Source: Oscillospiraceae bacterium
GTDB taxonomy: Bacteria; Bacillota; Clostridia; Oscillospirales; Ruminococcaceae
Direction of reading: 5' to 3'
NCBI GenBank assembly: GCA_017828955.1
Contig: JAGAJQ010000054.1
Location: 1 to 38,570 of the forward strand
DNA: 38,570 bases
Part shown: in pieces, positions 15,416-35,052 of the stretch
How positions within the stretch are numbered: position 1 is the first letter of the stretch
Layout: each line of letters starts with the position of its first letter
Program-made: the position numbers and the translations under genes
Notes under the pieces: model-generated
The model's database searches: none
What the model was told of the DNA's origin: nothing
What the model saw: only the letters and a program-made list of their open reading frames with translations

Positions 15416-15458
15416 TGTCATCGCTCCTTTCTGTTCGTTTTCTATATTCTACATCAAA

Positions 15459-15487: not shown

Positions 15488-15520
15488 ACAACCGATTTGA
15501 TGGGATAAAAGGTATCGCGA

Positions 15521-15574
15521 TGCATTTCAGGGCAGAAATCCTGCATTTCGTCAGGTTTTCAACAAATGCATTTT
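15521..15574. promoter_or_regulatory. Three phased direct repeats TGCATTTY (candidate LytTR-type activator site)
   Basis: TGCATTTC at 15521 and 15543, and TGCATTTT at 15567 (22- and 24-bp spacing). They lie in the divergent promoter region. An extended -10, TGATATGAT (15581-15589), follows on the plus strand. Confidence 0.3.
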
Positions 15575-15630
15575 AAAATGTGATATGATTGTGCTGTAAG
15601 ATACCTATTTATGTTAAAGGGGACATTTTT

Positions 15631-20193: not shown

Positions 20194-20214
20194 TTAATTT
20201 TATACGATTTTTCG

Positions 20215-20243
20215 TTGACAGGTAATAATTAAAATAGTATAAT
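20215..20243 (+). promoter_or_regulatory. Near-consensus sigma-A promoter at the head of the long plus-strand T7SS operon
   Basis: TTGACA, exactly 17 nt, TATAAT, about 40 nt upstream of paralogue B. Confidence 0.55.
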
Positions 20244-20284: not shown

Positions 20285-21442
20285 ATGCAGAAAAAATCAA
20301 AAATAATCATAATTTCAATAGTTTCGGCAATTCTTTTAATTGTCGGAATTTTTACTGCCATAGCGCTGACGGGTGCGGATAATCCGACGCAGGCAGTTGC
20401 GACAGAAAAACTCTCTCTCGGACAGAAATTTCTTTTAGACCTCGAATACGACAAGGCCGTTGCGGAATTCACAGCAGTTATTGATATTGAGCCTAAGAAT
20501 GTTGACGCTTACATAGGCCTTGCTGATGCCTATATCGGAATGGGTGATGAAGAAAAAGCCATTGAAACCCTCGAAAAAGGTTTTATGGAAACAGGCGATG
20601 AAACTATCAGGGCGAAACTTGAAGAATTGAAAGCAACATTTAAAGGACCAAAAACAGAACGAACAGATTATAAAAATGGTTATTATCGTATAGATGAATA
20701 TGATTCAAACGGAAATTTGATAAAAAGGAGTTATTACGATACCAAAGGTGTTCTTGGAAATTATCGTATATATGAATATGATTCAAATGGAAATAAGATA
20801 AAAGAAAGTTGTTACAACAGAAATGAAACGACTTATTATACAAACGAATATGACTTGAATGGAAATTGTATAAAAATAAGTTACTACAAAATAAACGGGA
20901 TTCTTTGTTATATAGATGAGTATAATTTAAACGGAAAGTTGATAAAAAAGAGTTATTACAACGCCGATGGAACATATAGCTCGATACACGAATACGATTC
21001 AAACGGAATTTTGATAAAAAATAGTTATTACAACGCCGACGGAACGCTTGATTATATACTGGAATACGATTCAGACGGGAAATTGATAAGAGAAAACCAT
21101 TACAATGCCGACGGAATTTTTGATTGTATGCATGAATACGATTCGAAAGGTATTTTGATAAAAAGAAGTTGGTATAACCCCGATGGAACACTTATTGATT
21201 ATTACATATGCGAATGCAATTCAAATGGAAAATTGATAAAAGAAAACCATTACAATGCCGACGGGATTTTTGATTGTATATTGGAATACGATGTATATGG
21301 TAATGAAATAAAAAGAAGTTGGTATAACCCCGACGGAACGCTTATTGATTATTACACATACGAATACGATTCAGAGAGCCAACTTATAAAAGAAAATCAT
21401 TACGATGCCGACGGAACGCTTATCGAAGAATACACCTACTAA
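20285..21442 (+). CDS. Paralogue B: TM anchor + TPR module + YD-like repeats (no Thr-rich linker)
   Basis: The N-terminal ~110 aa is nearly identical to A, D and E. Junction KGPKTERTD, then about 11 repeats (EYDSNGNLIKRSYY, YNADGTLDYILEYDSDGKLIRENHY). Confidence 0.85.
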   Translation: MQKKSKIIIISIVSAILLIVGIFTAIALTGADNPTQAVATEKLSLGQKFLLDLEYDKAVAEFTAVIDIEPKNVDAYIGLADAYIGMGDEEKAIETLEKGFMETGDETIRAKLEELKATFKGPKTERTDYKNGYYRIDEYDSNGNLIKRSYYDTKGVLGNYRIYEYDSNGNKIKESCYNRNETTYYTNEYDLNGNCIKISYYKINGILCYIDEYNLNGKLIKKSYYNADGTYSSIHEYDSNGILIKNSYYNADGTLDYILEYDSDGKLIRENHYNADGIFDCMHEYDSKGILIKRSWYNPDGTLIDYYICECNSNGKLIKENHYNADGIFDCILEYDVYGNEIKRSWYNPDGTLIDYYTYEYDSESQLIKENHYDADGTLIEEYTY

Positions 21443-21460
21443 CCCAAGGAGGAAAATAAA

Positions 21461-22126
21461 ATGAAAACAAAAATCTTATGTTACATAATCGACGGAATAA
21501 TACTCATATCGCTTATTGCGGTATGGGTTTATGTTCTTTTAACAGAAATGCCCATGAAATCAATAATCGCGATAGCGCTTATCTCGCTTGTCCTCATAAT
21601 ACTCGGCGGAGTTGTTCTTTTTGTGGCGATGAGAAGTGAAAGCGGAGAAAAGTCTGTTAAAAAACAGGTTGAAGAAAAAGAAGAAGTTCCCGTTATCGAA
21701 AAGCCTGAACCTGTTACTAAAAACAACGACGATCCGGAAACTGATATTATGCTAAAAGAACCGACAACAGAGATCATACTTGACAAAGGGTCTGACAAAA
21801 CAGAAATCATTCCTCAGAAGAGAAGTTTTTATGTAAAACTTCAGGATAAGAACAACTCTGTAAAGACATATCAGACATATTTTGACACAGAGGCTATCAT
21901 CGGAAGACATGAAGGAAACTGCAATATTGTCCTTGCGGATGAAAAGAGCGTTTCAAGACGCCATTGCAGACTTTTTGTCGATAAGGACAGAATTATGGCG
22001 GAGGACTTAGGGTCTTCAAACAGAACTTATGTAAACGGAATTCAGGTTGAGGGACGTGCACTTGAAATAAAAAGCGGAGATGAACTCAGAATGGGCAGAG
22101 CGATATTTATTGTCACAATAAATTAA
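21461..22126 (+). CDS. Membrane-anchored FHA-domain protein
   Basis: Two N-terminal TM helices and an acidic linker containing TTEII and KTEII. The C-terminal FHA domain has canonical phosphothreonine-binding residues (IIGRHE, SVSRRH, SSNRTYVNG). Confidence 0.85.
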   Translation: MKTKILCYIIDGIILISLIAVWVYVLLTEMPMKSIIAIALISLVLIILGGVVLFVAMRSESGEKSVKKQVEEKEEVPVIEKPEPVTKNNDDPETDIMLKEPTTEIILDKGSDKTEIIPQKRSFYVKLQDKNNSVKTYQTYFDTEAIIGRHEGNCNIVLADEKSVSRRHCRLFVDKDRIMAEDLGSSNRTYVNGIQVEGRALEIKSGDELRMGRAIFIVTIN

Positions 22127-22139
22127 GGGAGAGAACTCT

Positions 22140-23624
22140 ATGAAATACTGTGAATATACAAATACAGGAATAATCCGAAGCGTCAATCAGGACAGCCTTC
22201 TTTCGCTCTCGATGAACGGCTCGGGGCTTTTTGTCGTTGCCGACGGAATGGGCGGACATATAGACGGAGAGATTGCCAGCAAGGCTGTTAAAAAGGCCTG
22301 TCAGAAATGGTGGAACACATCTTTTATGGAAAATTCAGATATGGATTTTCTTCTGGCGGTTGAAGAAATCAAGGCAGCGATTGAAATTGTCAACAAAAAT
22401 CTCATAAAGAAAATGGAAGGTACGGGAAAAATCTGCGGAACAACCGTTGCCGTTGTTTTCATTCATAACGGTGCTTATGCCGCTATGAATATAGGCGACA
22501 GCAGAATATATCTTTCGAATAAAAGAGGTGTGCGTAAAATTTCATTTGACCACACCTTGAATTCGTTTGAGGAGATAAAAAACACCGCTCTTTCTGAAAA
22601 GGATAAACTTACTCAGGCGATAGGTGTTAAAGAAGATCTCAGCTGGTACACGGCGACAGATACACTCAAAAACGACGAAAAATTCTTTATCTGCACAGAC
22701 GGTGTTTATAAATACACAGAAGAGGAAGACCTTTTTTCTGCAATAAAGAATTACTCAGAAGAGGAAGAGATAAAGAAGGAAATCGAAAAGCAGGTTATCT
22801 TAGGCGGTGCGCCTGATAACTTTTCTTTTATTGCAATAGATATGAGAAAAGAAAAAGCCTCGGTTTCAAGAAAGCCTCTTATCATCGTTTCGGCGATAGC
22901 GGTTGCACTTTTCGTTATATTCACAGTGATTTTTGCGGTTGCCGTTTCGGGAGATAAAGGAGAAAATATACAGACTGTTATGTCTGAAAAACTCTCCCTC
23001 GGTCAGAAATTTCTTTTAGACCTCGAATACGACAAGGCTGTTGCAGAATTCACAGCCGTTATTGATATCGAGCCTAAGAATGTCGACGCTTATATGGGGC
23101 TTGCTTCTGCTTATATCGGTATGGGTGAAAAGGATAAGGCTATTGAAACTCTCGAAAAGGGTCTTATGGAAACGGACGACGAAACTATCAGGGCAAAACT
23201 TATGGAACTCAAAACCCCCGAAGAAACAACAGCAGAGGTGACTACTACCCCCGAAGAAACAACCCCCGAGACTACAACAACCCCTGAGGAGACGACAACT
23301 GTTCCTGAAACGACAATGGTTGTAACTACACAAAAAGCAGCAACAATAAAAAAATTCGAATATGAAGATGAGGATATTATAAGTGAATTTGATTCAAATG
23401 GAAGAATAATAAAAAGAAGTATCTATAAGAAAGACGGAACACTTTTAGAATACGAAATATATGGATACGATTCATACGGGAATATGTCAGAAGGATATTT
23501 TTATAAAGCAGACGGAACACTTCTTCGTTATTTCAGAGAAAAATACGATGAGAACGGAAGGATTGTAGATGCGACTATTAAAGTTTTAGAAGGAACAGCA
23601 TCTCCAATGGGAATTGTGCAATAA
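22140..23624 (+). CDS. PP2C (PPM) Ser/Thr phosphatase fused via a TM helix to the paralogue TPR + linker + YD-like ectodomain
   Basis: PPM motifs NQDS, VVADGMGGH, GDSRIY and TDGV. TM helix LIIVSAIAVALFVIFTVIFAVAV. This is followed by KLSLGQKFLLDLEYDKAVAEFTAVIDIEPKNVDAYMGL, a TTTPEETT linker and FDSNGRIIKRSIY repeats. Confidence 0.85.
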   Translation: MKYCEYTNTGIIRSVNQDSLLSLSMNGSGLFVVADGMGGHIDGEIASKAVKKACQKWWNTSFMENSDMDFLLAVEEIKAAIEIVNKNLIKKMEGTGKICGTTVAVVFIHNGAYAAMNIGDSRIYLSNKRGVRKISFDHTLNSFEEIKNTALSEKDKLTQAIGVKEDLSWYTATDTLKNDEKFFICTDGVYKYTEEEDLFSAIKNYSEEEEIKKEIEKQVILGGAPDNFSFIAIDMRKEKASVSRKPLIIVSAIAVALFVIFTVIFAVAVSGDKGENIQTVMSEKLSLGQKFLLDLEYDKAVAEFTAVIDIEPKNVDAYMGLASAYIGMGEKDKAIETLEKGLMETDDETIRAKLMELKTPEETTAEVTTTPEETTPETTTTPEETTTVPETTMVVTTQKAATIKKFEYEDEDIISEFDSNGRIIKRSIYKKDGTLLEYEIYGYDSYGNMSEGYFYKADGTLLRYFREKYDENGRIVDATIKVLEGTASPMGIVQ

Positions 23625-23681
23625 TATCTGACAAAATATCCGAATCGGATAAAACCTACTAACCCACCATGGAGGAAGATT

Positions 23682-25898
23682 ATGTTTAAGCAAGGCGAAT
23701 TACTCAACGGAACATACAAGATAATCGAAAATATAGGCTCGGGCGGTGGCGGAGAAATCTATAAAGCCTATCATACACACCTCGATTGTTATGTTGCCGT
23801 TAAACTTATAAAGGATAACATCAAGGGAAAACTTGATGACAGGGCAGAAGCCGATATCCTCAAAAAAATAAAACATTCATATCTTCCTCAGGTTTATGAC
23901 TTTGTCATCACTGACGAGGGGGATGTCTATACGGTTATGGAATTCGTTGAGGGGATGTCTTTTTCAGAGCATCTCAAAAACGGAAAGACATTCACAAACG
24001 CACAGGTTATAAAATACGCAAAGCAGGCTTGTGAGGCACTTTCATACCTGCATACAAGAAAACCCGCTATTGTCCACAGTGATATCAAACCTGCGAATAT
24101 TATGCTTACTCCCGATGACAATATCTGCATAATAGACTTCAACATCTCGTCTGTACTCAGTGAAGGAGGAGCGTTTGCTGTCGGCAAAAGCGACGGATAT
24201 TCTCCCCCTGAGCAGTATGTAAAGAAGAACAAGACGGAAAAAGCAAAGACAGATAAAACATCAACAATAACAGAAACAGAAATCTTAGGCGAAACAGAAT
24301 TTGACAGTTTTGAAGAAGATACTTCGATAACAGTTACAACCATAACAGAAATCGAGGAGACAGAAGCTGTTACAGACATAGTAGGAGAAGAGAAAGAAGA
24401 AACTGATATCACTCCCGAAAAGAGCAGTAGTTTTGCCTCAAAGATGATAGTTTCAAAAGCGATTATTGATGAACGTTCAGATGTTTATGCCCTTGGCGCA
24501 ACACTTTATCATCTCATCAGCGGAAAAAGACCTGAAAAGTCGACAGATGGTGTTACTCCCATAAACAAACTCGATACAGAGGCAAGCTACGGACTTCGCT
24601 GTATCATTTCAAAGGCTATGGAAAATTCTCCGAAAAAGAGATATGCAAACGCAGGGGAGATGCTTATTGCCCTTGAAAATATTCACAGTATGGAAAAGCT
24701 ATATAAAAGCTTTACTTTAAGAAACCGCATAATCTATGCCCTTTTGATTTTGGGAACAGCCTTTTTCTCTGTTCTTGCCTTTATGGGATATAAGAGAATC
24801 GGAACAGAAAATGCCATGGCATATAAGGAGTATACAGAAAAGCTCGTCGTTTTAAGAGAAAAGGGCGACGAAAAGGGCTTTGAAGAAATCTATCAGAAGG
24901 CAGAGGCTATCTATAACGACAGACTCGATATCCATTTTCAGAAAGCACTCTTTCTTTTTGAAAAGGGTGAATATGATAACTGTCTTTCATATATGGATGA
25001 AATAATGAGAAATCATCCCGAATACACGGACGATGCCGAAATGGCGGACCTTTTATTCGTTCATGCAAACTGTTATTTTGAAAAAGAGGATTATTCTTCG
25101 GCTATCATAAAATACAAATCCGCGATAGATAAAAAATCGGATAACGGAGAATATTACCGCGACTATGCAATTTCTCTCGCGAGAACGGGCGAGCCGGACA
25201 AGGCTTCGGAAGTTCTGAAAAGGGCGACAGAACTCGGTCTTTCGGAAGAAAATATATGCCTCGTTGACGGCGAAATAGATTTTGTAAGAGGAAGATATGA
25301 AGAGGCTGAAAAATCGCTTTTGAAATGTATATCCGTTTCATCTGATGAATACATAAAACAGCGTGCGTATATTCTTATAAACAAGGTTTATTCAAAAACG
25401 GGCGAAACCGCAAAGAATACGGAAATTCTCGAAAAGGCTTTAAAGGAACTTCCCGAAGAAAGACTTTACAGCATATATGAGCTTCTTTCACAATGCTATC
25501 TTGATATGGGAAAAGAAACGGGTGAAAACGACTATTATCTCAAAGCCGTTGATATTTTTTCGGTTATGCAGAAAAAGGGTTTCGGCGGATACAGAGTTTC
25601 TGAAAATAAGGCTGTCGCTTATTATACAATAGGCGATTGCGAGTCGGCAAAGGCGGAACTGAATAAGATGAAAGAGGATTTCGGAGAAAATTATAGAACA
25701 GATATGTATCTCGCTTTCTGCGAACTTCGTGAAGAGTCTGAAAAAAGCAATAACAAGAGAGACTATTCGGATTTTCTCAAATATTACAATAACGCGAAAA
25801 GCCTTTATGAAAAAGAGGCAGAGGATGGTATGACCGATATGGAAATGCAGGTTCTCACGGACACATATCATCAGCTAAAAGAGGGCAACTGGTTTTAA
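23682..25898 (+). CDS. Membrane Hanks-type Ser/Thr protein kinase with C-terminal TPR-like domain
   Basis: G-loop GSGGGGEIYKA, VAVK lysine, catalytic loop HSDIKPANIML (non-RD), DFN and SPPE. A ~70-aa Thr/Glu-rich insert precedes SDVYALG. One TM helix (IIYALLILGTAFFSVLAFMGY), then ~370 aa of helical TPR-like repeats. Confidence 0.9.
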   Translation: MFKQGELLNGTYKIIENIGSGGGGEIYKAYHTHLDCYVAVKLIKDNIKGKLDDRAEADILKKIKHSYLPQVYDFVITDEGDVYTVMEFVEGMSFSEHLKNGKTFTNAQVIKYAKQACEALSYLHTRKPAIVHSDIKPANIMLTPDDNICIIDFNISSVLSEGGAFAVGKSDGYSPPEQYVKKNKTEKAKTDKTSTITETEILGETEFDSFEEDTSITVTTITEIEETEAVTDIVGEEKEETDITPEKSSSFASKMIVSKAIIDERSDVYALGATLYHLISGKRPEKSTDGVTPINKLDTEASYGLRCIISKAMENSPKKRYANAGEMLIALENIHSMEKLYKSFTLRNRIIYALLILGTAFFSVLAFMGYKRIGTENAMAYKEYTEKLVVLREKGDEKGFEEIYQKAEAIYNDRLDIHFQKALFLFEKGEYDNCLSYMDEIMRNHPEYTDDAEMADLLFVHANCYFEKEDYSSAIIKYKSAIDKKSDNGEYYRDYAISLARTGEPDKASEVLKRATELGLSEENICLVDGEIDFVRGRYEEAEKSLLKCISVSSDEYIKQRAYILINKVYSKTGETAKNTEILEKALKELPEERLYSIYELLSQCYLDMGKETGENDYYLKAVDIFSVMQKKGFGGYRVSENKAVAYYTIGDCESAKAELNKMKEDFGENYRTDMYLAFCELREESEKSNNKRDYSDFLKYYNNAKSLYEKEAEDGMTDMEMQVLTDTYHQLKEGNWF

Positions 25899-25910
25899 GG
25901 AGTTTTAGAT

Positions 25911-26066
25911 ATGATTGAATTTATAAAGAATCTTTCTGTCGGCGAGCTTATGTTCTATGGCGGAATTTCAGGCGCAGGGCTTTGCGTTATCGCGATGATA
26001 GTGGGAATTCCCCTTACAAACCTCGGCAAAAAGCAGGTTAAGAACAAAATAGACAAGGAGTATTAA
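25911..26066 (+). CDS. Small membrane protein (51 aa), absent from the ORF track
   Basis: RBS AAGGAG 8 nt upstream of the ATG. Sequence MIEFIKNLSVGELMFYGGISGAGLCVIAMIVGIPLTNLGKKQVKNKIDKEY has one TM helix and a basic tail. It exactly fills the gap between the kinase gene and paralogue D. Confidence 0.5.
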   Translation: MIEFIKNLSVGELMFYGGISGAGLCVIAMIVGIPLTNLGKKQVKNKIDKEY

Positions 26067-26069
26067 ACT

Positions 26070-27176
26070 ATGCAGAAGAAATCAAAAATAATTATCATTT
26101 CGATAGTTTCGGCTATCCTTTTGATCGTCGGAGTTTTTACTGCCATATCACTTACGGGTGCAGGAAATAATACAGAAAAAGTAACAACGGAAAAACTCTC
26201 TCTCGGGCAGAAATTTTTACTCGACCTTGAATACGACAAGGCCGTTGCGGAATTTCAGGCAGTTATTGATATCGAGCCTAAGAATGTTGACGCTTACATA
26301 GGGCTTGCGGATGCCTATATCGGAATGGGCGAAGAAGAAAAGGCAATAGAAACTCTCGAAAAAGGTTTTATGGAAACAGGCGATGAAACTATCAGGGCGA
26401 AACTCGATGAGATTAAAGAGGTTGAGGAGACGACAGCGGAGGTTACTACTACTCCCGAGGTGACGACAACTCCGCCTGAAACGACAACAGAGGAGGTAAC
26501 GACAACACCTGAGGTTACGACTACTCCCGAGGTTACTACAACACCCGAGGTGACAACAACTGAGGAAATAACTACAACTCCCGAGGTTACTACAACCCTA
26601 AAAGGTCCGAGAACGGAGAGGGTAGATTTTGATGACGGAAGTTATCTGATTCACGAATATGACAAAGATGGTCAGTGTTTAAAAGAAACAGTATATTATT
26701 CAAATGGCGAATCCTATGGAGAAGCCACTAACGGCTTAACTGGTTGGTGGAATAATAAGAAAAATGAAACAGTTGAATACCGGTTTATTCATTTTAATAA
26801 ATGGATACGCGAGTTTGATTCAAATGGAAATATGATAAAAGTAAGTTATTACAACGCCGACGGAACGCTTAGTTATTACTATATAAACGAATACGATTCA
26901 AATGGAAATAGGATAAAAGAAAGTAGTTACAACGGCGACGGAACACTTATAGTTATATTAGAATACGATTCAAATGGAAATAGGATAAAAGACAGTTGGT
27001 ACCACTCCGACGGAACACTTTATAATTACTCTATACACGAATACGATTCAAATGGAAATAGGATAAAAGAAAGTTGGTACACCCCCGACGGAACACTTTA
27101 TTTGATATCCGAATACGATTCAAATGGAAATAGGATAAAAGAAAGTTGGTACAACCCCGACGGAACACCGATGTAA
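26070..27176 (+). CDS. Paralogue D: TM anchor + TPR module + long PEVTTT linker + YD-like repeats
   Basis: The N-terminal module is by eye about 90% identical in nucleotides to paralogue A. Junction KGPRTERVD, then repeats EYDSNGNRIKESWY. Confidence 0.85.
   Translation: MQKKSKIIIISIVSAILLIVGVFTAISLTGAGNNTEKVTTEKLSLGQKFLLDLEYDKAVAEFQAVIDIEPKNVDAYIGLADAYIGMGEEEKAIETLEKGFMETGDETIRAKLDEIKEVEETTAEVTTTPEVTTTPPETTTEEVTTTPEVTTTPEVTTTPEVTTTEEITTTPEVTTTLKGPRTERVDFDDGSYLIHEYDKDGQCLKETVYYSNGESYGEATNGLTGWWNNKKNETVEYRFIHFNKWIREFDSNGNMIKVSYYNADGTLSYYYINEYDSNGNRIKESSYNGDGTLIVILEYDSNGNRIKDSWYHSDGTLYNYSIHEYDSNGNRIKESWYTPDGTLYLISEYDSNGNRIKESWYNPDGTPM
26421..26598 (+). repeat. Thr/Pro/Glu/Val low-complexity tandem repeat (PEVTTT units)
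   Basis: EVTTTPEVTTTPPETTTEEVTTTPEVTTTPEVTTTPEVTTTEEITTTPEVTTT, encoded by degenerate 18-nt units. Confidence 0.8.
26811..27173 (+). repeat. Intragenic tandem 72/78-bp repeats, about 5 units
   Basis: Unit starts at 26811, 26889, 26961, 27039 and 27111. The string GAATACGATTCAAATGGAAATAGGATAAAAGA recurs four times, at the last four unit starts. Confidence 0.85.
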
Positions 27177-27202
27177 AAATCCCCGAAAGGACTTGAAAAA
27201 TT

Positions 27203-30200
27203 ATGGCATATATATTTTATTTCAACTTCAAAGAAAATGTTTATGAATACCCGTTGCCTGCTGTCAACAACAGGGTCATAAGCATTGATATATCTGAATT
27301 CTCATCGGAAAAAGGCGTTATAAATCTTGAAATCTTTGACGGCGTATGGAAACTCCTCCCCTCAGAAGATTTCAACTTCTCAGTGAACAACTCAATAATA
27401 ACAGAGAAGAAAATCGAAGACGGCGACAAAATCACAGCGAAGAAAAAACGCGGGGAACTCACCTTTATGATTTTTGCGCTCAAAGCCTCTGAAAACACAA
27501 GCGTATACAGAAAATGGTCGCTCGAAGGGGTAAACAGGGTTACTGTCGGTATGGATGAAAACTGCGATATCGTTTATAAAGAACAGTTTGTCAGCCATAA
27601 ACACGCAACTATCGAAAGAAAAGGCTCGGGCTTTTTCCTTACAGACAATTCAACAAACGGAACATTTTTAAATGGCTCGAAAATATCGGGCGAAACCCCT
27701 CTTTCTATCTTTGACACAATATACATACTGGGTCTTAAAATAATCTTTTTAGGCGAATATATAGCAACAAACAAGATTTTGGAACTCGGCGTTTCGCTTA
27801 CTGAAATATGCGATATAAACAATGATTATGAGCCTTATGAGGATGAATCCGACTTTTCTCGTTCACCGAGAAGAATAGAGCCTCTCGATGAAGAAGTAAT
27901 TGAGATAGAATCCCCTCCCTCACAGCATAAGGCTTCGAGTCAGCCTCTTATTTTCATAATAGGCCCTTCGGTAACAATGCCACTGCCGATTATGATTTCT
28001 GTCATCATAAATATGATGTCATCGGGCAACACATCAAATCCGCTTATGTATTTAGGAACGGTAATTTCCGTTGTATGTTCGGGATTCATAGGCGCGGGTT
28101 GGGCACTCGCACATCAGTTTTATAACAAGAAGACAGTTAAAAAACAGGAAGAAGCAAGAGTAAAGGCATATGGCGAATATATTGCCAAAAACGAAAATCT
28201 TCTCTCTGAAAAACAGGATAAGAACAAGCGTATTATAGATGAACAGTTTTTATCCTCAGATAAACTTATGAAAAAGGTTTTCAAGGATAAGACTTTTTTA
28301 TGGAACAGAAATATAAACCACGCCGATTTCTCGAAAATCCGTTTCGGAACAGGCTCTGTAAAACTTCCTAACGGAATATCTGTTCCCAAGGAAAGATTTT
28401 CTATGAATGACGACACCCTTGCCGACAAGCCGAGAGAGCTTTTCGACCGTTACAACACAATGGAAGACTGCGCATATACCGCAAGACTCAACGACAGCAA
28501 GATATGGGGCGTTATCGGTGAATATAAGAATGTTATGAATATCGTCAATAACATCGCCGTTCAGCTTTCGGCGCTCCATAGTTATAGCGATATCAAGATA
28601 GCGATTCTCTGTAAAGAAAACGAAAAGGAAAAATATCTCTGGATGAAGTGGCTTCCTCATATATTCTCATCCGACAGAAAAGTAAGAATGTTCGGATGCG
28701 ACAGCAACTCTGTAAAGAATGTATGCAATTTCCTCGGCGGAGAACTCCGTTCAAGAGAGGAGAATGCAGAGGGTGCATTATCAAGGGATTTAAGATTTCT
28801 CCCTCATTATTTCGTTATCTGCACAGACAAGTCCATCCTTGAAAAGAACAGTCTTTCAAAATACATAATGAATAATTCCGAGCTCGGTTTTACATTCATT
28901 CTTGCATACGAAAAGATGGACAAACTCCCCAATGAATGTAAGGTCATCATACAGCATGACGAAACATACAGCGGAATATATTCGCTTTCATCAACTATCG
29001 ACGAAACAAACTCTGTAAATTTCGATAACGTTGATGTAAAATACGCAGAAAAATATGCAAGAGCAATAAGCGGACTTTATCTTACAGAATTCACACAGGG
29101 CGAAATCCCCGCTTCTATCGATTATCTCGATATGCTCGGCATAGGAAAATTCGAACAATGGAACCTTATCAGAAAATACAAGGAAAACCGTTCTTATGAA
29201 AGTCTTGCTTCGTTTATAGGAATAGGAACAGGTAACCGCCCCGTTGTTCTTGATATCAGCGAAAAGATGCATGGTCCTCATGGTCTTATTGCGGGAACAA
29301 CAGGCTCGGGTAAGAGTGAAACAATACAGACATTTATTCTTTCGCTTATTTTAAATTACAGCCCCGATGAAGTTGCGTTTATCCTTATTGACTATAAGGG
29401 TGGAGGAATGGCAGCCGCTTTTGAAGGAATACCTCACCTTGCGGGAATTATCACAAACCTCGGCGGAGATACAGGCGAGGGTGAGATTGACGAAAACCTT
29501 ACAAGACGTGCACTTATCTCGATAAAGAGTGAAATAAAGAGAAGACAGCAGATTTTCAACCGCTATAAAGTAAACCATATAAACCAGTATATAAAGATGT
29601 ACAGAGGCGGTGCTGTCAGCGAAGCATTACCCCATTTGATTATTATATCGGACGAATTTGCAGAACTTAAACACAAACAGCCTGAATTCATCAAAGAACT
29701 TGTCAGCGTTGCCAGAGTAGGAAGAAGCCTCGGCGTTCATCTTATACTTGCAACACAGAAACCTTCGGGGGTTGTCGATGAAGAAATCTGGAGTAACTCA
29801 CGTTTCAAAATCTGTCTTAAAGTTCAGGACAAGCAGGACAGTATAGGAATGCTCAAACGCCCCGAGGCAGCATATCTTGTCAATACGGGACGCGCTTATA
29901 TGCAGATAGGAAACGATGAGATTTTTGATATGTTCCAGTCGGGATATTCGGGTGCTGAATATATGCCGACAGATGAATTTGTTTCTTCAAAGGATAAGGA
30001 AGTCATTATGATTGATATCGACGGAACATATCTTGAAGAAAACACAATGACAGGAAAAGGAAATCAGACAGGTATCTCACAGCTTAAAGCGGGTATTGAT
30101 TATGTAATAAATGTTTCGGCAATGAGTGGTTTCAAACCGACAAGAAAACTTTGGAATGAATGTCTGCCTTCGCTTATCGGTCTTGATAAACTTGATGTTT

Positions 30201-31798
30201 CGGGCATTGATTTTAAAAGCGGGCTCATCTCCTGCTATGGTATCATTGATAACCCTGAAAAACAGTCACAGTATCCTGCTGTCGTTGATGTTTCAAAGAC
30301 ATCTCATATACTTGTTTCAGGTATGTCAGGCTCAGGAAAATCAACATTCTTACAGACAATGGTATATTCTCTTGTTTCAAGATATACTCCCGATGAAATA
30401 CAGTTCTACTTCATAGATTTTTCAAGCAGAACAACAAGAAAATTTGAAAAGCTTCCTCATTGCGGAGGAGTTGTTTTCCAGGAACACAACGAACTCATAG
30501 AAAGACTTTTCAGACTTCTTGAAAACGAATGTGATGAAAGAAGAAGAATTTTCGATAAGGCAGATGCGGGAAGTTTCGGTGAATATACAAAGAAGAATAA
30601 AATGCCTATGATACTTGTTGTAATCGACAATTATGCAGGTTTTTCAGAAGGGTATCCCGAACTTGCAGAAAAACTCGCAGGGTTTTCAAGAGACTGCCTT
30701 AAATACGGCATCCAGCTTGTTATTTCAGCGAATAATACAAACGATGTGAAATACAAGACAATGCAGAATATCGGATATAAAATCGCACTCCGCCTTTCAG
30801 ACCGTTATGGATATAACGAAATACTCGGTGGTGCGCCCGAATTCACACCTTCAAAATATGCAGGCCGTGGTCTTGTAAAAGAAGACGGTATTTTAGAATT
30901 CCAGACAGCTGTTCCGTTTGAAATCGAAGATGAAACAGAACGTTCTGAAAAGATGATAAAGGAATTTTCAGATATCGCAAAGAAATACAAGAAACACACT
31001 CCCGCAAAGAGAATTCCGTCTATCCCCAGGGATGAAATATATGCTGATTTCTATGAAAAGAATAAGGCGGATGGTATGATTCCTTTAGGATACGATACAA
31101 ACGATATCTCACCTCTTTCTCTTTCGAGACGTGATACATTCTGTCTTGCTGTCGGTGCTTCTGAAGAAAAGAGTATATCGCTTATGTTCAGTAACTTCAC
31201 TTACTGTGCGAAACAGTCGGGCGCTGTTGTATGGTATTTTAAAACATCGACAGATATGCTCTGTAAACCTGAATATGTCGACAGGGTTTATACAAAGACA
31301 AAAATCGAAGATTTTCTTAAAGCCTTGCAGAAAGAGTTTGAAACTGCATCTGAAATAAGAGGGAAATATAAGGATTCTATGAGTGTAAACGAGATGGAAA
31401 CAAAGGTTGTCGAAGAAAAGAAGATGCTCTATATCTTTATTGATAATATGGCAGAATTTTGTAAGATAATATATAATCCCAAAAATGAATATCCGCTTAA
31501 TAATATTGTTGAGGAGACATTCAGATATGGCGAAAAGAGAGGGGTAACCTTTATAGTTGGCTTCGGAACTGATAGCTATATCGACGCTATACACAGCACA
31601 GCCTGCAGGAATTTCCTCTTTAATAAGACAATTCTTCATATCGGCGGACATCTTGATCAGCAGAAACTTTATTCTTCATCATTGCCTTATAATATCCAGA
31701 ACAGACCTCTTGATTTACAGACAGGCTATTTCTTCAACGGAACAACCGAAAGACAGATATTCATACCATTGTCCGAACGAGGTGAAAACGATGCTTGA
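27203..31798 (+). CDS. essC: T7SS FtsK/SpoIIIE-family ATPase EssC (N-terminal FHA region, 2 TM helices, 3 ATPase domains)
   Basis: FHA-like segment VTVGMDENCDIVYKEQFVSHKHATIE...STNGTFLNG and two TM helices. D1 has GTTGSGKSE and IIISDEFAEL. D2 has GMSGSGKST and VVIDNYA. D3 has the degenerate P-loop GASEEKS. The 1531-aa length is typical of EssC/YukB. Confidence 0.9.
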   Translation: MAYIFYFNFKENVYEYPLPAVNNRVISIDISEFSSEKGVINLEIFDGVWKLLPSEDFNFSVNNSIITEKKIEDGDKITAKKKRGELTFMIFALKASENTSVYRKWSLEGVNRVTVGMDENCDIVYKEQFVSHKHATIERKGSGFFLTDNSTNGTFLNGSKISGETPLSIFDTIYILGLKIIFLGEYIATNKILELGVSLTEICDINNDYEPYEDESDFSRSPRRIEPLDEEVIEIESPPSQHKASSQPLIFIIGPSVTMPLPIMISVIINMMSSGNTSNPLMYLGTVISVVCSGFIGAGWALAHQFYNKKTVKKQEEARVKAYGEYIAKNENLLSEKQDKNKRIIDEQFLSSDKLMKKVFKDKTFLWNRNINHADFSKIRFGTGSVKLPNGISVPKERFSMNDDTLADKPRELFDRYNTMEDCAYTARLNDSKIWGVIGEYKNVMNIVNNIAVQLSALHSYSDIKIAILCKENEKEKYLWMKWLPHIFSSDRKVRMFGCDSNSVKNVCNFLGGELRSREENAEGALSRDLRFLPHYFVICTDKSILEKNSLSKYIMNNSELGFTFILAYEKMDKLPNECKVIIQHDETYSGIYSLSSTIDETNSVNFDNVDVKYAEKYARAISGLYLTEFTQGEIPASIDYLDMLGIGKFEQWNLIRKYKENRSYESLASFIGIGTGNRPVVLDISEKMHGPHGLIAGTTGSGKSETIQTFILSLILNYSPDEVAFILIDYKGGGMAAAFEGIPHLAGIITNLGGDTGEGEIDENLTRRALISIKSEIKRRQQIFNRYKVNHINQYIKMYRGGAVSEALPHLIIISDEFAELKHKQPEFIKELVSVARVGRSLGVHLILATQKPSGVVDEEIWSNSRFKICLKVQDKQDSIGMLKRPEAAYLVNTGRAYMQIGNDEIFDMFQSGYSGAEYMPTDEFVSSKDKEVIMIDIDGTYLEENTMTGKGNQTGISQLKAGIDYVINVSAMSGFKPTRKLWNECLPSLIGLDKLDVSGIDFKSGLISCYGIIDNPEKQSQYPAVVDVSKTSHILVSGMSGSGKSTFLQTMVYSLVSRYTPDEIQFYFIDFSSRTTRKFEKLPHCGGVVFQEHNELIERLFRLLENECDERRRIFDKADAGSFGEYTKKNKMPMILVVIDNYAGFSEGYPELAEKLAGFSRDCLKYGIQLVISANNTNDVKYKTMQNIGYKIALRLSDRYGYNEILGGAPEFTPSKYAGRGLVKEDGILEFQTAVPFEIEDETERSEKMIKEFSDIAKKYKKHTPAKRIPSIPRDEIYADFYEKNKADGMIPLGYDTNDISPLSLSRRDTFCLAVGASEEKSISLMFSNFTYCAKQSGAVVWYFKTSTDMLCKPEYVDRVYTKTKIEDFLKALQKEFETASEIRGKYKDSMSVNEMETKVVEEKKMLYIFIDNMAEFCKIIYNPKNEYPLNNIVEETFRYGEKRGVTFIVGFGTDSYIDAIHSTACRNFLFNKTILHIGGHLDQQKLYSSSLPYNIQNRPLDLQTGYFFNGTTERQIFIPLSERGENDA

Positions 31799-32522
31799 TG
31801 TTTATATCTATGACGCGGATATTTCAAGGCATACTACTGTTCAGAGCTATTGTTTCAGATTTTTTATGAGGAAAAATCTGACATCCGAAATAAAACTCAT
31901 AACAGCCGACGCTATGGAAGCAGGCAGAGTTTTTTCAGAAGAGGAGAAGCAATCTGTTTTTATAATAAGCTGTGATGAATATTCCGATTATCTTATAAAA
32001 TCTATGAGAAAAGGGAATGCCGAAAATTATCTGATAATTGTTGCAAACGATTTTGATGATATTCTTAAATATCTGAAACCCGGTCATAAACCATCAGGAT
32101 TTATATTAAGACCTATGAAACCCTATGACATAGAAAAACTTATGGGAGATATAATTTCGGATTATAAATCGAAAAAAGAAAAGCAGGAGTTTGATTGTTT
32201 TGTTTTCAAGATGAAGTCAACGGAATACAGCATTCCGTTTGACTCGATAATATCCTTTGAAAGCGGAAACAAGAAAATAAAACTGAAAACCGCCGAAAAG
32301 GAATATTCCTTTTACAGCACATTCGATGATATACAGAACACCCTCCCCGATGGGTTTATAAGGGTGCATAAAAGCTATATCATCAATATGGCGCATATAA
32401 AAGAAATTCATTATGCCGATTCTGAAATTATTTTAAGCGGTGGAACAAGCGTTTATTTTTCAAGGACATACCGCAGTGTTGTCAGAGAACTTTTCAACAT
32501 AAACGCAGAAACAGTCTCATAG
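31791..32522 (+). CDS. LytTR-family DNA-binding protein with atypical receiver-like N-terminal domain
   Basis: ATG at 31791 follows RBS GAGGTGA and overlaps the essC stop (ATGCTTGA). The listed start at 31557 lies inside essC. The C-terminal LytTR motif is FIRVHKSYIINMAHIKEI. The N-terminal domain has VYIYDAD and VFIISCD but lacks the conserved receiver Thr/Ser and Lys (LIIVAN, FILRP). Confidence 0.75.
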   Translation: MLDVYIYDADISRHTTVQSYCFRFFMRKNLTSEIKLITADAMEAGRVFSEEEKQSVFIISCDEYSDYLIKSMRKGNAENYLIIVANDFDDILKYLKPGHKPSGFILRPMKPYDIEKLMGDIISDYKSKKEKQEFDCFVFKMKSTEYSIPFDSIISFESGNKKIKLKTAEKEYSFYSTFDDIQNTLPDGFIRVHKSYIINMAHIKEIHYADSEIILSGGTSVYFSRTYRSVVRELFNINAETVS

Positions 32523-32534
32523 GAGGAAATTTAT

Positions 32535-32792
32535 ATGACAAAGATACTTGTTGAAATAAATTGCCCCTCAACTGCAAGAAACTATGAATTCTGGATTTCA
32601 AAGCAGATGATTGTAAAGGACGTTATAAAAATCTGCAAAGAAGAAATCTGTATGACAGAGGGCAATAAGAAGATTTTCAACGATAACGAAAATATGGTGC
32701 TTTTTTCACAGAGGCTCCGTATTCCGCTTAATGAAAACTATACCGCAACCGAAGCGGGAATCATAAGCGGAGATAAACTTATGATTGTTTAA
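32535..32792 (+). CDS. esaB: YukD/EsaB-like ubiquitin-fold T7SS protein (85 aa)
   Basis: Size, a beta-grasp-like pattern (KILVEINCP, YEFWISKQMIVKDV, ISGDKLMIV at the C-terminus) and position beside essC. RBS AGGAGG. Confidence 0.65.
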   Translation: MTKILVEINCPSTARNYEFWISKQMIVKDVIKICKEEICMTEGNKKIFNDNENMVLFSQRLRIPLNENYTATEAGIISGDKLMIV

Positions 32793-32806
32793 AGAGGACG
32801 AATTTT

Positions 32807-33652
32807 ATGCAGAAAAAATCAAAAATAATCATAATTTCGGTAGTTTCGGCAATTCTTTTAGTTGTAGGAGTTTTTACCGCCATAGCACTCACAGGTAAGG
32901 GAAACAGCATTGAAAAAGAGGTCGGCGAAAAGCTCTCTCTCGGGCAGAAATTCTTGCTTGACCTCGAATACGACAAGGCCGTTGCGGAATTTCAGGCAGT
33001 TATTGATATCGAGCCTAAGAATGTTGACGCTTATATAGGCCTTGCTGATGCCTATATCGGCATGGGCGAAGAAGAAAAGGCAATAGAAACCCTCGAAAAA
33101 GGTTTTATGGAGACAGGCGATGAAAAGATTCAGGCGAAACTCGAAGAGATGAAAACCCCCGAAGAAACAACCGCAGAGGTAACCACAACACCCGAGGAGA
33201 CGACAACTGTTCCTGAAACTACAACAACAGTTGCGACGACAGCCAAAAAATCAGGCTGGACAGAGAGGAAAGATTATAGCGATGGTTCTTATCGGATAAT
33301 CGAATACGATTCGGACGGGCATATGATAAAATCAAGTTATTACAACGCTGACGGAACGCTTAATTATTACTATATAAACGAATACGATTCAAAAGGAATT
33401 TTGATAAAAAATAGTTTTTACAATGCCGACGGCATACTTGATTGCTATTATACTTATGAATATTATTCCTATCCTGGCAAATACAAAAAAGCATATAAAT
33501 ATCTTCCTGACGGAACACTTGACAGTTATTCTTTATTTGAATATTATGAATCCGGTTACATCAAAAAACAGACATGGTATTACCAATCGGGTGGCGAAGG
33601 CTGGCATGATTGGGAAGACGGAGAAGCCATGTGGGCTCATGCGATTTGGTAA
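32807..33652 (+). CDS. Paralogue E: TM anchor + TPR module + Thr-rich linker + YD-like repeats
   Basis: Same MQKKSKIIIIS start and TPR module. Repeats EYDSDGHMIKSSYYNADGTL. The divergent Trp-rich C-terminus is WYYQSGGEGWHDWEDGEAMWAHAIW. Confidence 0.85.
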   Translation: MQKKSKIIIISVVSAILLVVGVFTAIALTGKGNSIEKEVGEKLSLGQKFLLDLEYDKAVAEFQAVIDIEPKNVDAYIGLADAYIGMGEEEKAIETLEKGFMETGDEKIQAKLEEMKTPEETTAEVTTTPEETTTVPETTTTVATTAKKSGWTERKDYSDGSYRIIEYDSDGHMIKSSYYNADGTLNYYYINEYDSKGILIKNSFYNADGILDCYYTYEYYSYPGKYKKAYKYLPDGTLDSYSLFEYYESGYIKKQTWYYQSGGEGWHDWEDGEAMWAHAIW

Positions 33653-33667
33653 TTTTTGGATTTTCAT

Positions 33668-33705
33668 AAAAAGGACATCTTTTTTAAGATGTCCTTTTTA
33701 TTTTA
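33668..33705. terminator. Bidirectional rho-independent terminator
   Basis: 12-bp stem AAAAAGGACATC / GATGTCCTTTTT with an 8-nt loop and flanking A/T runs, between convergent operons. Confidence 0.75.
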
Positions 33706-33707: not shown

Positions 33708-35048
33708 TTATTTACAACCCATTAAAACGCTCGCAGAGAAAATTCCGTTTTCTGCGTTTGCGGAATAAGAACCGTAATATTTTTCGGCGATGTTTTTGAC
33801 GATGTTCGTTCCTAGTCCGTGAAGGAGTTTATCCTTTTTCTGAGTTGTAAGTTTCTTGGCTTTTTCTTCATCAAGACAAGAGTTTTCACAACAGATAGCG
33901 ATAGTTCCCTTCTTGCAGACGCAGTTGAGCGTTATCTTCTTTTCACCTTCTGCTATGCGTTCACATTCTTCGATAGCGTTGTCAAGTAAATTTGTGAAAA
34001 CCGAAACGATATCCATAGAGTCGATATCTATTTTTTCGGGCAAGTTTATTGATGTTTCAAAAGTAATGCCCTTTTCCTTGGCGATTGTTTCTTTACTTGA
34101 AACCGCAGCGTTTACTATGTTGTTTTCACAGTATTCGATTTTCTTTACATCATAAGAAGATGTCATTTCGCTGACATATTTTTTAAATCCCTCGGTGTCG
34201 TTGTTTTCAGAAAGGATACGAAGCGCCTGAATGTGATTTTTTATGTCGTGGTTCATTTTTCTTATCGTCTGCTGATTTTTTTCAAGAGAAGCGTAATAGT
34301 CAAACTGCAACTGAGTCTGCTTTTTTAAAAATTCCTTTTCACGCTTATAGTTCGAACTTAAAACCGTACTGAAAAGAATGGTATAAAGTATCATAAGGGG
34401 AATAAGCATTGTATAGAATATTGTCGGATATTTAAATTCGCCTGTCATAGAAAAATCATTGATAAACATAATTACAAATCCGGGGATTTCTATGAGAACG
34501 AAAACTATCGAGAAAATCATCGAAAAAGCAATTGGCGGATGATATCTTCTGAAAAGAACAGGACCCGCAAGATAAAGGGGAAGAAGAAATCCTGTCCAGT
34601 CGATAAGTTTTCTGAATATCCATTCCGCGATTACAACGCTTTGGGAATAATTATCTGATGAAAGAATAAATTCCCGAACACCCGTTGCGTCATAACAGAA
34701 TGAAATTATTGTCGAGATAGTTGTTGTTGCAAAGGCAACGAGAAAATAGAATGAAAAATATCTCCATTTGTCTTCGTTGTAGTTTATGGATGTATAGATG
34801 TAAACCATAGCATAAAATGCAAACGATAAAATAAGCATTACATATATGTCAACATTATATCCGTCGGTTGTAATCAATCCTTTGAAGATATTTCCGATGA
34901 ATTTTATAGTGAAGAAAACAGGCAGAAGAATTTTTGAAAATTTCTTCGGCGGAATGGCAATCATTATTGAAAGAAATTCAATAATGGTCGTAAGAAAAAT
35001 CTCTACTATATAAAAAATGTCACTCGTATTGTTGTAAGGTGTAAACAT
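33708..35048 (-). CDS. AgrC/LytS-type (HPK10-like) sensor histidine kinase
   Basis: Six to seven N-terminal TM helices, H-box MNHDIKNHIQALR, N-box FTNLLDNAIEE and G-box GLGTNIVKNIAEKY. Start moved from the listed TTG at 35081 to the ATG at 35048, which has RBS AGAGGGG and follows the regulator's stop codon. Confidence 0.8.
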   Translation of the reverse strand: MFTPYNNTSDIFYIVEIFLTTIIEFLSIMIAIPPKKFSKILLPVFFTIKFIGNIFKGLITTDGYNVDIYVMLILSFAFYAMVYIYTSINYNEDKWRYFSFYFLVAFATTTISTIISFCYDATGVREFILSSDNYSQSVVIAEWIFRKLIDWTGFLLPLYLAGPVLFRRYHPPIAFSMIFSIVFVLIEIPGFVIMFINDFSMTGEFKYPTIFYTMLIPLMILYTILFSTVLSSNYKREKEFLKKQTQLQFDYYASLEKNQQTIRKMNHDIKNHIQALRILSENNDTEGFKKYVSEMTSSYDVKKIEYCENNIVNAAVSSKETIAKEKGITFETSINLPEKIDIDSMDIVSVFTNLLDNAIEECERIAEGEKKITLNCVCKKGTIAICCENSCLDEEKAKKLTTQKKDKLLHGLGTNIVKNIAEKYYGSYSANAENGIFSASVLMGCK

Positions 35049-35052
35049 TTTA

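What the first reader, a model, noticed from the sequence alone, without database searches (positions are those of the whole stretch)
31791..32522. LytTR regulator with a degenerate receiver domain, translationally coupled to essC and placed between essC and yukD
Seen in sequence: the start codon overlaps the essC stop (ATGCTTGA) and has its own GAGGTGA RBS. The C-terminal LytTR domain is intact. The N-terminal domain keeps acidic residues (VYIYDAD, VFIISCD) but lacks the conserved Thr/Ser and Lys, unlike the bona fide regulator at 35053-35760.

Inference: this is an orphan, possibly phosphorylation-independent or Ser/Thr-kinase-controlled transcription factor made in step with the secretion ATPase. 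It could form a feedback loop onto the WXG or paralogue promoters. A DNA-binding regulator embedded inside the T7SS core operon is unusual.
Basis: partly seen in the sequence, partly recalled or inferred. Interest (0 to 1): 0.6.

Follow-up and report, generated by a model that had tools for sequence, protein, structure and literature searches.

The report
Pseudo-receiver LytTR regulator of T7SS
This gene encodes a DNA-binding regulator whose sensor half can no longer take the usual phosphate; it is a fixed part of a variant type VII secretion gene cluster in gut Clostridia (a kind named TsiN in 2024) and probably switches on neighbouring secreted-protein or surface-protein genes through a conserved pair of DNA repeats.

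Summary
ORF 31791-32522 encodes a 243-aa protein. Its ATG overlaps the essC stop (ATGCTTGA) behind a GAGGTGA ribosome-binding site. It has an intact LytTR domain and an N-terminal CheY-fold domain that keeps one of the five receiver catalytic residues (D8; A9, S60, A85 and R107 replace D, D, T, K).

It is not unusual. Every relative I could place (about 35 genomes of Oscillospirales and Lachnospiraceae) lies beside essC, and 0 of 27 ordinary LytTR response regulators do. Garrett, Higginson and Palmer (2024) list such a protein, TsiN, as a T7SSi component.

Added here:
- a family-wide pseudo-receiver signature;
- a predicted operator: TGCATTTCGTCAG-type direct repeats, 21-bp period, with a -10 hexamer 41-42 nt downstream of repeat 2.

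The strong repeat pair occurs once in this genome, at 15520-15554. In five other loci a box (a pair or a single half-site) precedes WXG100 gene arrays.

Binding, targets and control of activity are inferred, not shown. This scan reached similar readings on other genomes (e1-1976386, e1-5329977).

Verdict: new member of a known kind, moderate interest.

The parts
31791..32522 (+). Gene for the 243-aa pseudo-receiver LytTR regulator (P0001), TsiN-like
   Evidence: Orthologues at 95, 70 and 57% identity sit in the same position in three species of the genus.
31791..32195 (+). Pseudo-receiver domain, residues 1-135. CheY fold; D8 kept; A9, S60, A85 and R107 at the other catalytic positions
   Evidence: No Pfam Response_reg hit at E 10. 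AF2 model and Foldseek. hhalign mapping. Read-out with controls.
32226..32495 (+). LytTR DNA-binding domain, residues 146-235
   Evidence: Pfam PF04397, E 4e-22, profile positions 4-97 of 98. Fold matches AgrA and 3d6w LytTR domains at TM 0.8-0.9.
31779..31798 (+). Shine-Dalgarno GAGGTGA (31779-31785) and the ATGCTTGA start/stop overlap with essC (31791-31798)
   Evidence: The overlap is invariant in four species.
27203..31798 (+). essC, a 1531-aa FHA-FtsK/SpoIIIE ATPase immediately upstream
   Evidence: TIGR03928, 1066.7 bits against a cut-off of 778.4.
32535..32792 (+). 85-aa YukD/EsaB-like ubiquitin-fold gene immediately downstream
   Evidence: The window protein alone matches Pfam YukD only at E 0.035. 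Eight of 9 syntenic homologues match, best 4.8e-9.
15520..15554 (+). Predicted LytTR box: ATGCATTTCAGGG, then 8 nt, then CTGCATTTCGTCAG; direct repeat with a 21-bp period
   Evidence: The only strong pair in the 1.9-Mb genome. The same box and geometry occur in other T7SS loci that carry a family member.
15566..15589 (+). Third weaker copy (ATGCATTTT, 15566-15574) and a TG-extended -10 TATGAT (15584-15589), 42 nt after the start of repeat 2. It faces the TPR-DUF2963 gene at 15631.
15446..15451 (-). -10 TAGAAT of the divergent WXG100 operon (first gene 15026-15421). The box lies about 70-105 nt upstream of it, inverted.
   Evidence: Block conserved between this genome, G001 and G004.
20215..20243 (+). 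Consensus sigma-70 promoter (TTGACA, 17 nt, TATAAT) of the 10-gene operon 20285-33652 that contains the regulator gene
   Evidence: About 90% conserved in G001 and G004.
33666..33701 (+). Terminator-like hairpin that ends the operon
35053..35760 (-). Canonical LytTR response regulator with D10, D56, T84 and K104, next to its kinase (33708-35081). Used as the comparison; it is a rival binder of the box.

Best explanation
The gene encodes a TsiN-type regulator, a LytTR transcription factor whose N-terminal receiver has become a pseudo-receiver that cannot take part in His-Asp phosphotransfer.

It is transcribed from the T7SS core operon (promoter at 20215, terminator at 33666) and is translationally coupled to EssC. 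Its amount therefore follows that of the secretion ATPase.

It most likely binds, as a dimer, the 21-bp-period direct repeat ATGCATTTC(A/G)..., 8 nt, (A/C)TGCATTTCGTCAG at 15520-15554, in the divergent promoter region. From there it would activate the promoter 42 nt downstream, which drives the TPR-DUF2963 surface-protein operon starting at 15631, and possibly the WXG100 operon on the other strand. This would tie production of secreted and surface proteins to production of the machine.

Shown: gene structure, fold, loss of catalytic residues, strict linkage to essC, and the presence and conservation of the repeat.
Inferred: DNA binding to that repeat, activation rather than repression, and independence from phosphorylation.
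For: 1. Architecture. LytTR at E 4e-22 and no receiver hit. CheY fold, with ComE as best full-length match. hhalign to true LytTR regulators gives 99.9% probability.

2. Catalytic positions in 34 essC-linked relatives against 27 control regulators:
- metal-binding Asp: kept in 2 relatives, 27 controls;
- Thr: Ala in 25 relatives; Thr in 17 controls (the other controls look shifted by about one column);
- Lys: Arg in 21 relatives; Lys in 27 controls.

3. Linkage to essC.
- All 12 loci from named genome records have EssC beside the gene.
- The 2 best hits in a 401-genome Oscillospirales sample are beside EssC, against 0 of the next 14.
- The 20 best hits in a 401-genome Lachnospiraceae sample are all beside EssC, against 0 of the next 13.

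4. Operator.
- The composite repeat plus -10 occurs 4 times in 556 kb of family loci, 0 times in 448 kb of control loci, and once in the whole genome, in this window.
- PWM pair scores are 33-42 in four family loci; the best control scores 20.
- In L087, L027, L021, L095 and L090 a box (a repeat pair in L087, L027 and L095; one strong half-site in L021 and L090) lies 60-132 nt before a gene array whose later members match Pfam WXG100.
- tblastn found no kinase or second LytTR gene within the roughly 8-10 kb fetched on each side of the regulator gene in those loci.

5. Published precedent: TsiN, described as 'LytR-like' with a 'CheY-like superfamily' domain, is a T7SSi component.
Against: - No binding, expression or phosphorylation data exist.
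- In this genome a second LytTR protein, the canonical regulator at 35053-35760, could bind the same box. In G004 the box sits between that regulator's operon and the WXG operon, as in agr P2/P3.
- Only 4 of 33 family loci show a strong box, and a few more show weak ones. The PWM was trained on the sites it then scored.
- In this genus the box is inverted relative to the WXG100 operon, unlike the five other loci.
- Single exact 13-mers do occur by chance; one lies inside a gene in G007.
- Homology to the Vallitalea TsiN itself could not be checked.
Confidence: 0.6

Rival explanations
1. Same protein, but its activity is set by Ser/Thr phosphorylation from the operon's own membrane kinase (23682-25898) and PP2C phosphatase (22140-23624). 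This would follow known cases from my own knowledge, such as WalR-PrkC, CovR-Stk1 or the aspartate-less RitR-StkP. The phosphorylation would act on the alpha4-beta5 loop that feeds the dimer face.
For: - The kinase, phosphatase and an FHA protein are in the same operon.
- Such genes recur in many of the related loci.
- By my count from the table, 31 of 34 family members carry a Ser at position 102 or 103, just before beta5.
- P97 is present in 34 of 34 family members and in 1 of 27 controls.
Against: - No Ser or Thr is invariant.
- Several related loci show no kinase within the stretch fetched.
- Nothing here tests phosphorylation.
Confidence: 0.2
2. The pseudo-receiver is a protein-binding module. 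The regulator would be held inactive by a secretion component (EssC, the YukD-like protein or a chaperone) and released when secretion runs, as in the partner-switch circuits of flagella and type III systems.
For: - Start/stop coupling to essC is invariant across the genus.
- The gene order essC, regulator, (EspG-like), yukD-like is conserved.
- Stand-alone pseudo-receiver paralogues exist: P0007, encoded at L013:6156-6565 in G004, and other hits of 107-136 aa.
Against: - The EspG-like gene found between regulator and yukD in Lachnospiraceae loci has no tblastn match in this genome.
- Gene order alone is weak evidence.
Confidence: 0.12
3. It is an ordinary two-component response regulator, served by the histidine kinase at 33708-35081.
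For: A GHKL kinase lies 1.2 kb downstream on the other strand.
Against: - Four of the five catalytic residues are replaced, including the acceptor.
- That kinase overlaps and is co-oriented with its own canonical regulator.
- tblastn found no kinase in the roughly 8-10 kb flanks of the essC-linked relatives outside this genus.
Confidence: 0.03

Closest known systems
TsiN, the 'LytR-like transcriptional regulator' of the T7SSi variant (Garrett, Higginson & Palmer 2024, Microlife 5:uqae013, PMC11217815)
   Same: - LytTR plus CheY-like N-domain.
- Encoded in a T7SS cluster whose EssC-type ATPase has FHA domains, with a YukD-like gene.
- Proposed to regulate the cluster.
- Related Lachnospiraceae loci also carry an EspG-fold gene (a TsiG equivalent) between the regulator and the YukD-like gene.
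   Different: - The paper says T7SSi is found only in Vallitalea and gives one sentence on TsiN, without noting the decayed receiver or any operator.
- This locus has no EspG-like gene. It carries a receptor-type kinase, a PP2C phosphatase, an FHA protein and TPR-DUF2963 paralogues instead.
- Sequence identity to Vallitalea TsiN could not be measured.
AgrA / ComE / LytR-type LytTR response regulators
   Same: - Same two-domain fold; full-length ComE (4cbv) is the best structural match.
- The LytTR domain is intact.
- The predicted target is a pair of direct repeats with a 21-bp period just upstream of a promoter that lacks a -35, which is the classical LytTR geometry (from my own knowledge of agr and com promoters).
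   Different: - No phospho-acceptor Asp, metal-binding Asp, Thr or Lys.
- No cognate kinase.
- No peptide-signal genes.
Pseudo-receiver / atypical response regulators (review: PMC12632262; examples from my own knowledge: ChxR, HP1043, RitR, BldM)
   Same: The receiver fold is kept and the catalytic residues are lost. Activity is presumably independent of His-Asp phosphotransfer.
   Different: The characterised examples I know of have OmpR- or NarL-type outputs. The review text does not mention LytTR.
LytTR regulatory systems of streptococci (HdrRM, BrsRM); from my own knowledge
   Same: A kinase-independent LytTR transcription factor controlled by something other than phosphorylation.
   Different: Those proteins have no receiver-like domain and are paired with a small membrane inhibitor. 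No such pair is seen here.

Membership tests
TsiN (T7SSi regulator) | Encoded inside a T7SS cluster next to an EssC-type ATPase with N-terminal FHA domains | tested here: met
   The start codon overlaps the essC stop. EssC carries an FHA domain at 113-175.
TsiN (T7SSi regulator) | LytTR DNA-binding domain plus CheY-like N-terminal domain | tested here: met
   The paper's supplement lists 'LytR-like' and 'CheY-like superfamily' for TsiN.
TsiN (T7SSi regulator) | Sequence homology to the Vallitalea TsiN proteins | not testable with these tools
   No Vallitalea sequence could be fetched.
TsiN (T7SSi regulator) | Companion T7SSi genes: TsiB (ubiquitin-like), TsiG (EspG-like), TsiM | tested here: inconclusive
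   TsiB-like: present. EspG-like: present in six related Lachnospiraceae loci, with EspG chaperones as the top 17 Foldseek matches, but no tblastn match in this genome. TsiM: not examined.
Canonical LytTR response regulators (AgrA/ComE/LytR/AlgR) | Receiver with the five catalytic residues (two acidic, acceptor Asp, Thr/Ser, Lys) | tested here: not met
   The positions read D8, A9, S60, A85, R107. Controls read D/E, D, D, T, K.
Canonical LytTR response regulators (AgrA/ComE/LytR/AlgR) | Cognate histidine kinase in the same operon | tested here: not met
   The operon 20285-33652 holds none. The nearby kinase is paired with its own regulator.
Canonical LytTR response regulators (AgrA/ComE/LytR/AlgR) | Intact LytTR domain | tested here: met
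   PF04397, 78.7 bits against a cut-off of 22.6.
Pseudo-receiver (atypical) response regulators | Receiver fold that lacks residues needed for phosphotransfer | tested here: met
Pseudo-receiver (atypical) response regulators | Activity independent of Asp phosphorylation | not testable with these tools
   This needs biochemistry.

The most novel reading that the evidence does not exclude
The pseudo-receiver is a sensor of the secretion apparatus itself. Its alpha4-beta5 loop (family-specific P97 and Ser102/103) would be phosphorylated by the operon's membrane kinase, or be bound by EssC or a chaperone. Transcription of WXG100 substrates and surface paralogues would then be switched by the activity state of the T7SS, not merely by its abundance. 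That would be a secretion-coupled checkpoint so far unknown for type VII systems of Bacillota.
Probability: 0.2. Interest if true: 0.7.

Novelty: new member of a known kind. Interest (0 to 1): 0.42.

Why it matters
Almost nothing is known about how the variant type VII secretion systems of gut and rumen Clostridia are controlled. This analysis makes three points.
- The one-line 'TsiN' component reported from Vallitalea belongs to a wider family fixed beside essC in many Lachnospiraceae and some Oscillospirales.
- Its receiver is non-catalytic across the family.
- There is a concrete, short, testable operator with a fixed promoter geometry in front of WXG100 substrate genes.

That turns 'may regulate T7SS genes' into an experiment that could be done with one purified protein and a 100-bp DNA fragment. 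Family members also occur in species with cultured strains (Coprococcus eutactus, Eubacterium limosum), although linkage to essC was not checked in those two.

Tried and rejected
Contexts of database homologues and an EssC-FHA x pseudo-receiver complex could therefore not be examined.
- No RNA holder was listed among public runs.
- The search for related loci with the 31-sequence alignment failed for lack of a conserved stretch.
- The profile search with A2 was swamped by relatives of the canonical regulator I had included, and added nothing.
- Names looked up for 20 family clusters gave no Vallitalea entry.
- The looser pattern RAAATGCA, 10-25 nt, RAAATGCA also hit intragenic places in G007 and in G001 contig 27. 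I treat these as chance.
- An exact 13-mer in G007 lies in coding sequence with no repeat or -10. I treat this as chance too.
- The 8-mer pair alone is not enriched in family loci over control loci. Only the extended site with its geometry separates them.
- No LytTR-type repeat was found at the core-operon promoter, upstream of the canonical regulator, or elsewhere in the window.
- A conserved Cys21 (at least 90% within the closest subfamily) is not kept in the wider family. I dropped a redox-switch idea.
Full report
**The gene.** The ORF runs from 31791 to 32522 on the + strand and encodes 243 residues.
- Its ATG (31791-31793) lies 5 nt after GAGGTGA (31779-31785).
- It overlaps the TGA of the 1531-aa essC gene (27203-31798) in the sequence ATGCTTGA.
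- EssC identity is firm: TIGR03928 scores 1066.7 bits against a cut-off of 778.4.
- The 8-nt overlap is invariant in the three other species of the genus that carry the gene, at 95, 70 and 57% protein identity.

**The operon.** The gene sits in a 10-gene unit.
- The unit begins at a perfect TTGACA, 17 nt, TATAAT promoter (20215-20243) and ends at a hairpin (33666-33701).
- Gene order: TPR-DUF2963 paralogue, FHA protein, PP2C-TPR phosphatase, Ser/Thr kinase-TPR, a 51-aa ORF, a second paralogue, essC, this gene, an 85-aa gene, a third paralogue.
- The 85-aa product matches Pfam YukD only at E 0.035 on its own. Eight of nine syntenic homologues match it, best 4.8e-9.

**The two domains.**
- Pfam finds LytTR at residues 146-235 (E 4e-22) and nothing in residues 1-135, even at E 10.
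- An AlphaFold2 model (pLDDT 86.7) gives a (beta-alpha)5 N-domain followed by the LytTR beta fold.
- Foldseek ranks full-length ComE first (E 1e-12). Isolated receivers match at target-normalised TM-scores of about 0.64-0.83, and AgrA LytTR domains at 0.85-0.89.
- A profile of 28 family members aligns over its full length with a profile of 23 true LytTR response regulators (hhalign probability 99.9%, E 1.4e-32).
- In that alignment the regulators' invariant D10, D56, T84 and K104 face A9, S60, A85 and R107 of this protein. D8 faces the first acidic residue.
- As a check I aligned 27 ordinary regulators to the family HMM. The same columns read D/E, D (27 of 27), D (23), T (17; the others look shifted by about one column) and K (27 of 27), so the mapping is sound.
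- The receiver is therefore a pseudo-receiver.

**The family.**
- A phmmer search with the N-domain alone against 1.84 billion representative proteins found only 33 hits at E up to 1e-3. Most are 230-245 aa long.
- Across 34 essC-linked relatives: the metal-binding Asp survives in 2, the Thr position is Ala in 25, and the Lys position is Arg in 21 and Lys in 11.
- The acceptor column is Asp in 20 (mostly the Lachnospiraceae branch), Glu in 4 and Ser in 3 (the window's own clade).
- Pro97 is present in all 34 and in 1 of 27 controls.

**Linkage to essC.** This is the strongest result.
- Twelve loci were recovered from named genome records through two peptide patterns of the protein itself: MAGs labelled Oscillospiraceae, Ruminococcus, Clostridia, Clostridiales and Lachnospiraceae. 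All have EssC nearby, directly upstream in nearly every case.
- In an even sample of 401 genomes of the window's order, the two best outside hits (E 6e-55 and 8e-40) lie directly downstream of essC. The next 14 hits (E 1e-28 and weaker) do not, and most of them sit next to a histidine kinase.
- In that sample 26 genomes have an EssC match at E up to 1e-50, and only 3, counting this genome, carry the regulator. It marks a minority T7SS type there.
- In 401 Lachnospiraceae genomes, the 20 best hits (E up to 1.4e-35) are all directly downstream of essC on the same strand. The next 13 (E 1e-34 to 1e-30) are not.
- Six of those Lachnospiraceae loci have a gene of about 230-240 aa between the regulator and the YukD-like gene. 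Its model matches EspG chaperones in the top 17 Foldseek hits.
- Those loci therefore carry counterparts of TsiC, TsiN, TsiG and TsiB. That gene has no tblastn match in the window's genome.

**What is published.** Garrett, Higginson and Palmer (2024, PMC11217815) define T7SS variants c to j.
[quoted passage not shown] - Their supplement lists 'LytR-like' and 'CheY-like superfamily' for TsiN.
- No other paper in the library mentions TsiN in this sense, or links LytTR to T7SS in Ruminococcus.
- A 2025 review of pseudo-receivers does not mention LytTR.
- The kind of component is thus known. Its wide distribution, its decayed receiver and its operator are not in that paper.

**A predicted operator: how it was found.**
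- A search of the window's intergenic regions for LytTR-style direct repeats found ATGCATTTC / CTGCATTTC with a 21-bp period at 15520 and 15541. A third, weaker copy lies at 15566.
- The site is identical in G001 and partly kept in G004. There the collinear block runs from the box to the WXG100 operon.
- A Lachnospiraceae locus (L087) carries GATGCATTTCATCC, 8 nt, ATGCATTTCGTCAGA, against GATGCATTTCAGGG, 8 nt, CTGCATTTCGTCAGG in the window.

**A predicted operator: how strong it is.**
- The 13-mer TGCATTTCGTCAG occurs exactly in the window, L021 and L087, and with one mismatch as a tandem pair in L027. It is absent from 448 kb of control loci.
- By my counting on the sequences, a -10 hexamer (TATAAT, TATGAT or TAGAAT) starts 41-42 nt after the start of repeat 2 in the window, L021, L027, L087, L090 and at both sites of L095. 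The scripted scan confirms this for the window, L027 and L087.
- A composite scan (repeat 2 with up to 3 mismatches, repeat 1 at 20-22 nt, -10 at 40-43 nt) gives 4 hits in 556 kb of family loci and 0 in 448 kb of controls. It gives exactly one hit in the 1.9-Mb genome, the window's site.
- PWM pair scores are 33-42 in four family loci, and the best control scores 20.3. The PWM was trained on these sites, so only the controls are informative.

**A predicted operator: what lies downstream.** This was not part of the search.
- In L087, L027, L021, L095 and L090 a box lies 60-132 nt before a gene array. It is a repeat pair in L087, L027 and L095, and one strong half-site in L021 and L090.
- The array's later members match Pfam WXG100 at E 1.7e-5 to 2.9e-16. 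Where the first ORF is a separate helical protein of 118-128 aa, it has no WXG100 hit.
- tblastn found no kinase or second LytTR gene within the roughly 8-10 kb fetched on each side of the regulator gene in those loci.
- In L095 a second box precedes the kinase-essC-regulator operon. A weaker one precedes the essC operon in L078.

**Reading for this window.**
- The box lies in the 209-bp divergent region between the WXG100 operon (first gene 15026-15421, minus strand) and the first TPR-DUF2963 paralogue (15631, plus strand).
- By geometry it serves the plus-strand promoter (TG-extended TATGAT at 15584-15589, 42 nt from repeat 2). That promoter drives the unit 15631-19741, which ends at the hairpin 19744-19777.
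- Relative to the WXG100 promoter (TAGAAT at 15451-15446) the box is inverted and lies about 70-105 nt upstream.
- Which of the two promoters responds is open. So is which LytTR protein binds, because this genus also has a canonical kinase-regulator pair (33708-35760).
- The core-operon promoter carries no such box. It is about 90% conserved in G001 and G004 and has an inverted repeat, ATCGT, 9 nt, ACGAT, next to its -35. It faces a divergent HTH_3 (XRE-type) gene at 19858-20169.
- The likely logic is a cascade: XRE-controlled core operon, then the regulator, then the substrate or surface-protein operon. It is not feedback on the regulator's own promoter.

**How the pseudo-receiver is controlled is unknown.** The options are:
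- constitutive activity set by abundance;
- Ser/Thr phosphorylation by the operon's kinase;
- binding to a secretion component.

Stand-alone pseudo-receiver paralogues suggest the domain can act on its own. One of 136 aa opens the operon in G004, and others of 107-136 aa are in the database.

**Relation to earlier notes of this scan.** After I had the fold and the linkage, look-ups showed that the scan had reached similar readings on other genomes.
- e1-1976386: pseudo-receiver LytTR regulator with a conserved pair of direct repeats.
- e1-5329977: aspartate-less LytTR regulator, possibly held by the neighbouring chaperone.
- e1-4310039: a first-reader note only.

The lead to the 2024 paper came from note e1-4325709. 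I then read the paper myself.

**Verdict.** The feature is an ordinary, conserved component of a recently named T7SS variant, not an oddity. What this analysis adds is a family definition, evidence that the family is far more widespread than Vallitalea, and a specific operator prediction.

Noticed in passing
window 19858-20169 (-) and 20170-20284: A 103-aa HTH_3 (XRE/Cro-type) gene is transcribed divergently from the T7SS core operon. The shared region has a perfect sigma-70 promoter and an inverted repeat, ATCGT, 9 nt, ACGAT, next to the -35. It is about 90% conserved in G001 and G004 although the proteins are only 70% identical. This is probably the primary switch of the core operon.
   Followed up: partly
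L013:6156-6565 (G004), protein P0007: A stand-alone 136-aa copy of the pseudo-receiver domain (57% identical to residues 1-130) is the first gene of the T7SS operon in G004. It is absent at that position in the window. Other hits of 107-136 aa exist in the database (P0029, P0031).
   Followed up: partly
L018:11838-12143 (G001): A remnant duplicates the regulator/yukD junction downstream of the third TPR paralogue in G001: residues 100-163 of the regulator at 92% identity and residues 38-85 of the YukD-like protein at 92%. Seven stop codons lie in the overlapping match in genome coordinates (G001:C30:16887-17261).
   Followed up: no
L087:8768-9490 and homologues in L090, L077, L088, L085, L082: A gene of about 230-240 aa between the regulator and the YukD-like gene in Lachnospiraceae loci has no Pfam hit (L087 copy tested). 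Its model has an EspG-chaperone fold (top 17 Foldseek matches). There is no tblastn match in the window's genome.
   Followed up: yes
window 25911-26066 (+): A 51-aa ORF between the kinase and the second TPR paralogue is conserved at 98, 78 and 86% identity in G001, G004 and G007. It has no family match. It may be a real small protein of the system.
   Followed up: no
G000 contig C25, about 6700-12400: A second patch of DUF2963/RHS-type paralogue fragments lies next to an ORF of about 180 aa that carries a LytTR domain (12128-12415). A one-mismatch copy of the 13-mer lies at 8832, with no repeat partner.
   Followed up: partly
L018:13017-15725 (G001): G001 has two tandem copies of the AgrC-like histidine kinase (65% and 75% identical to the window's single one) beside the canonical regulator.
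   Followed up: no
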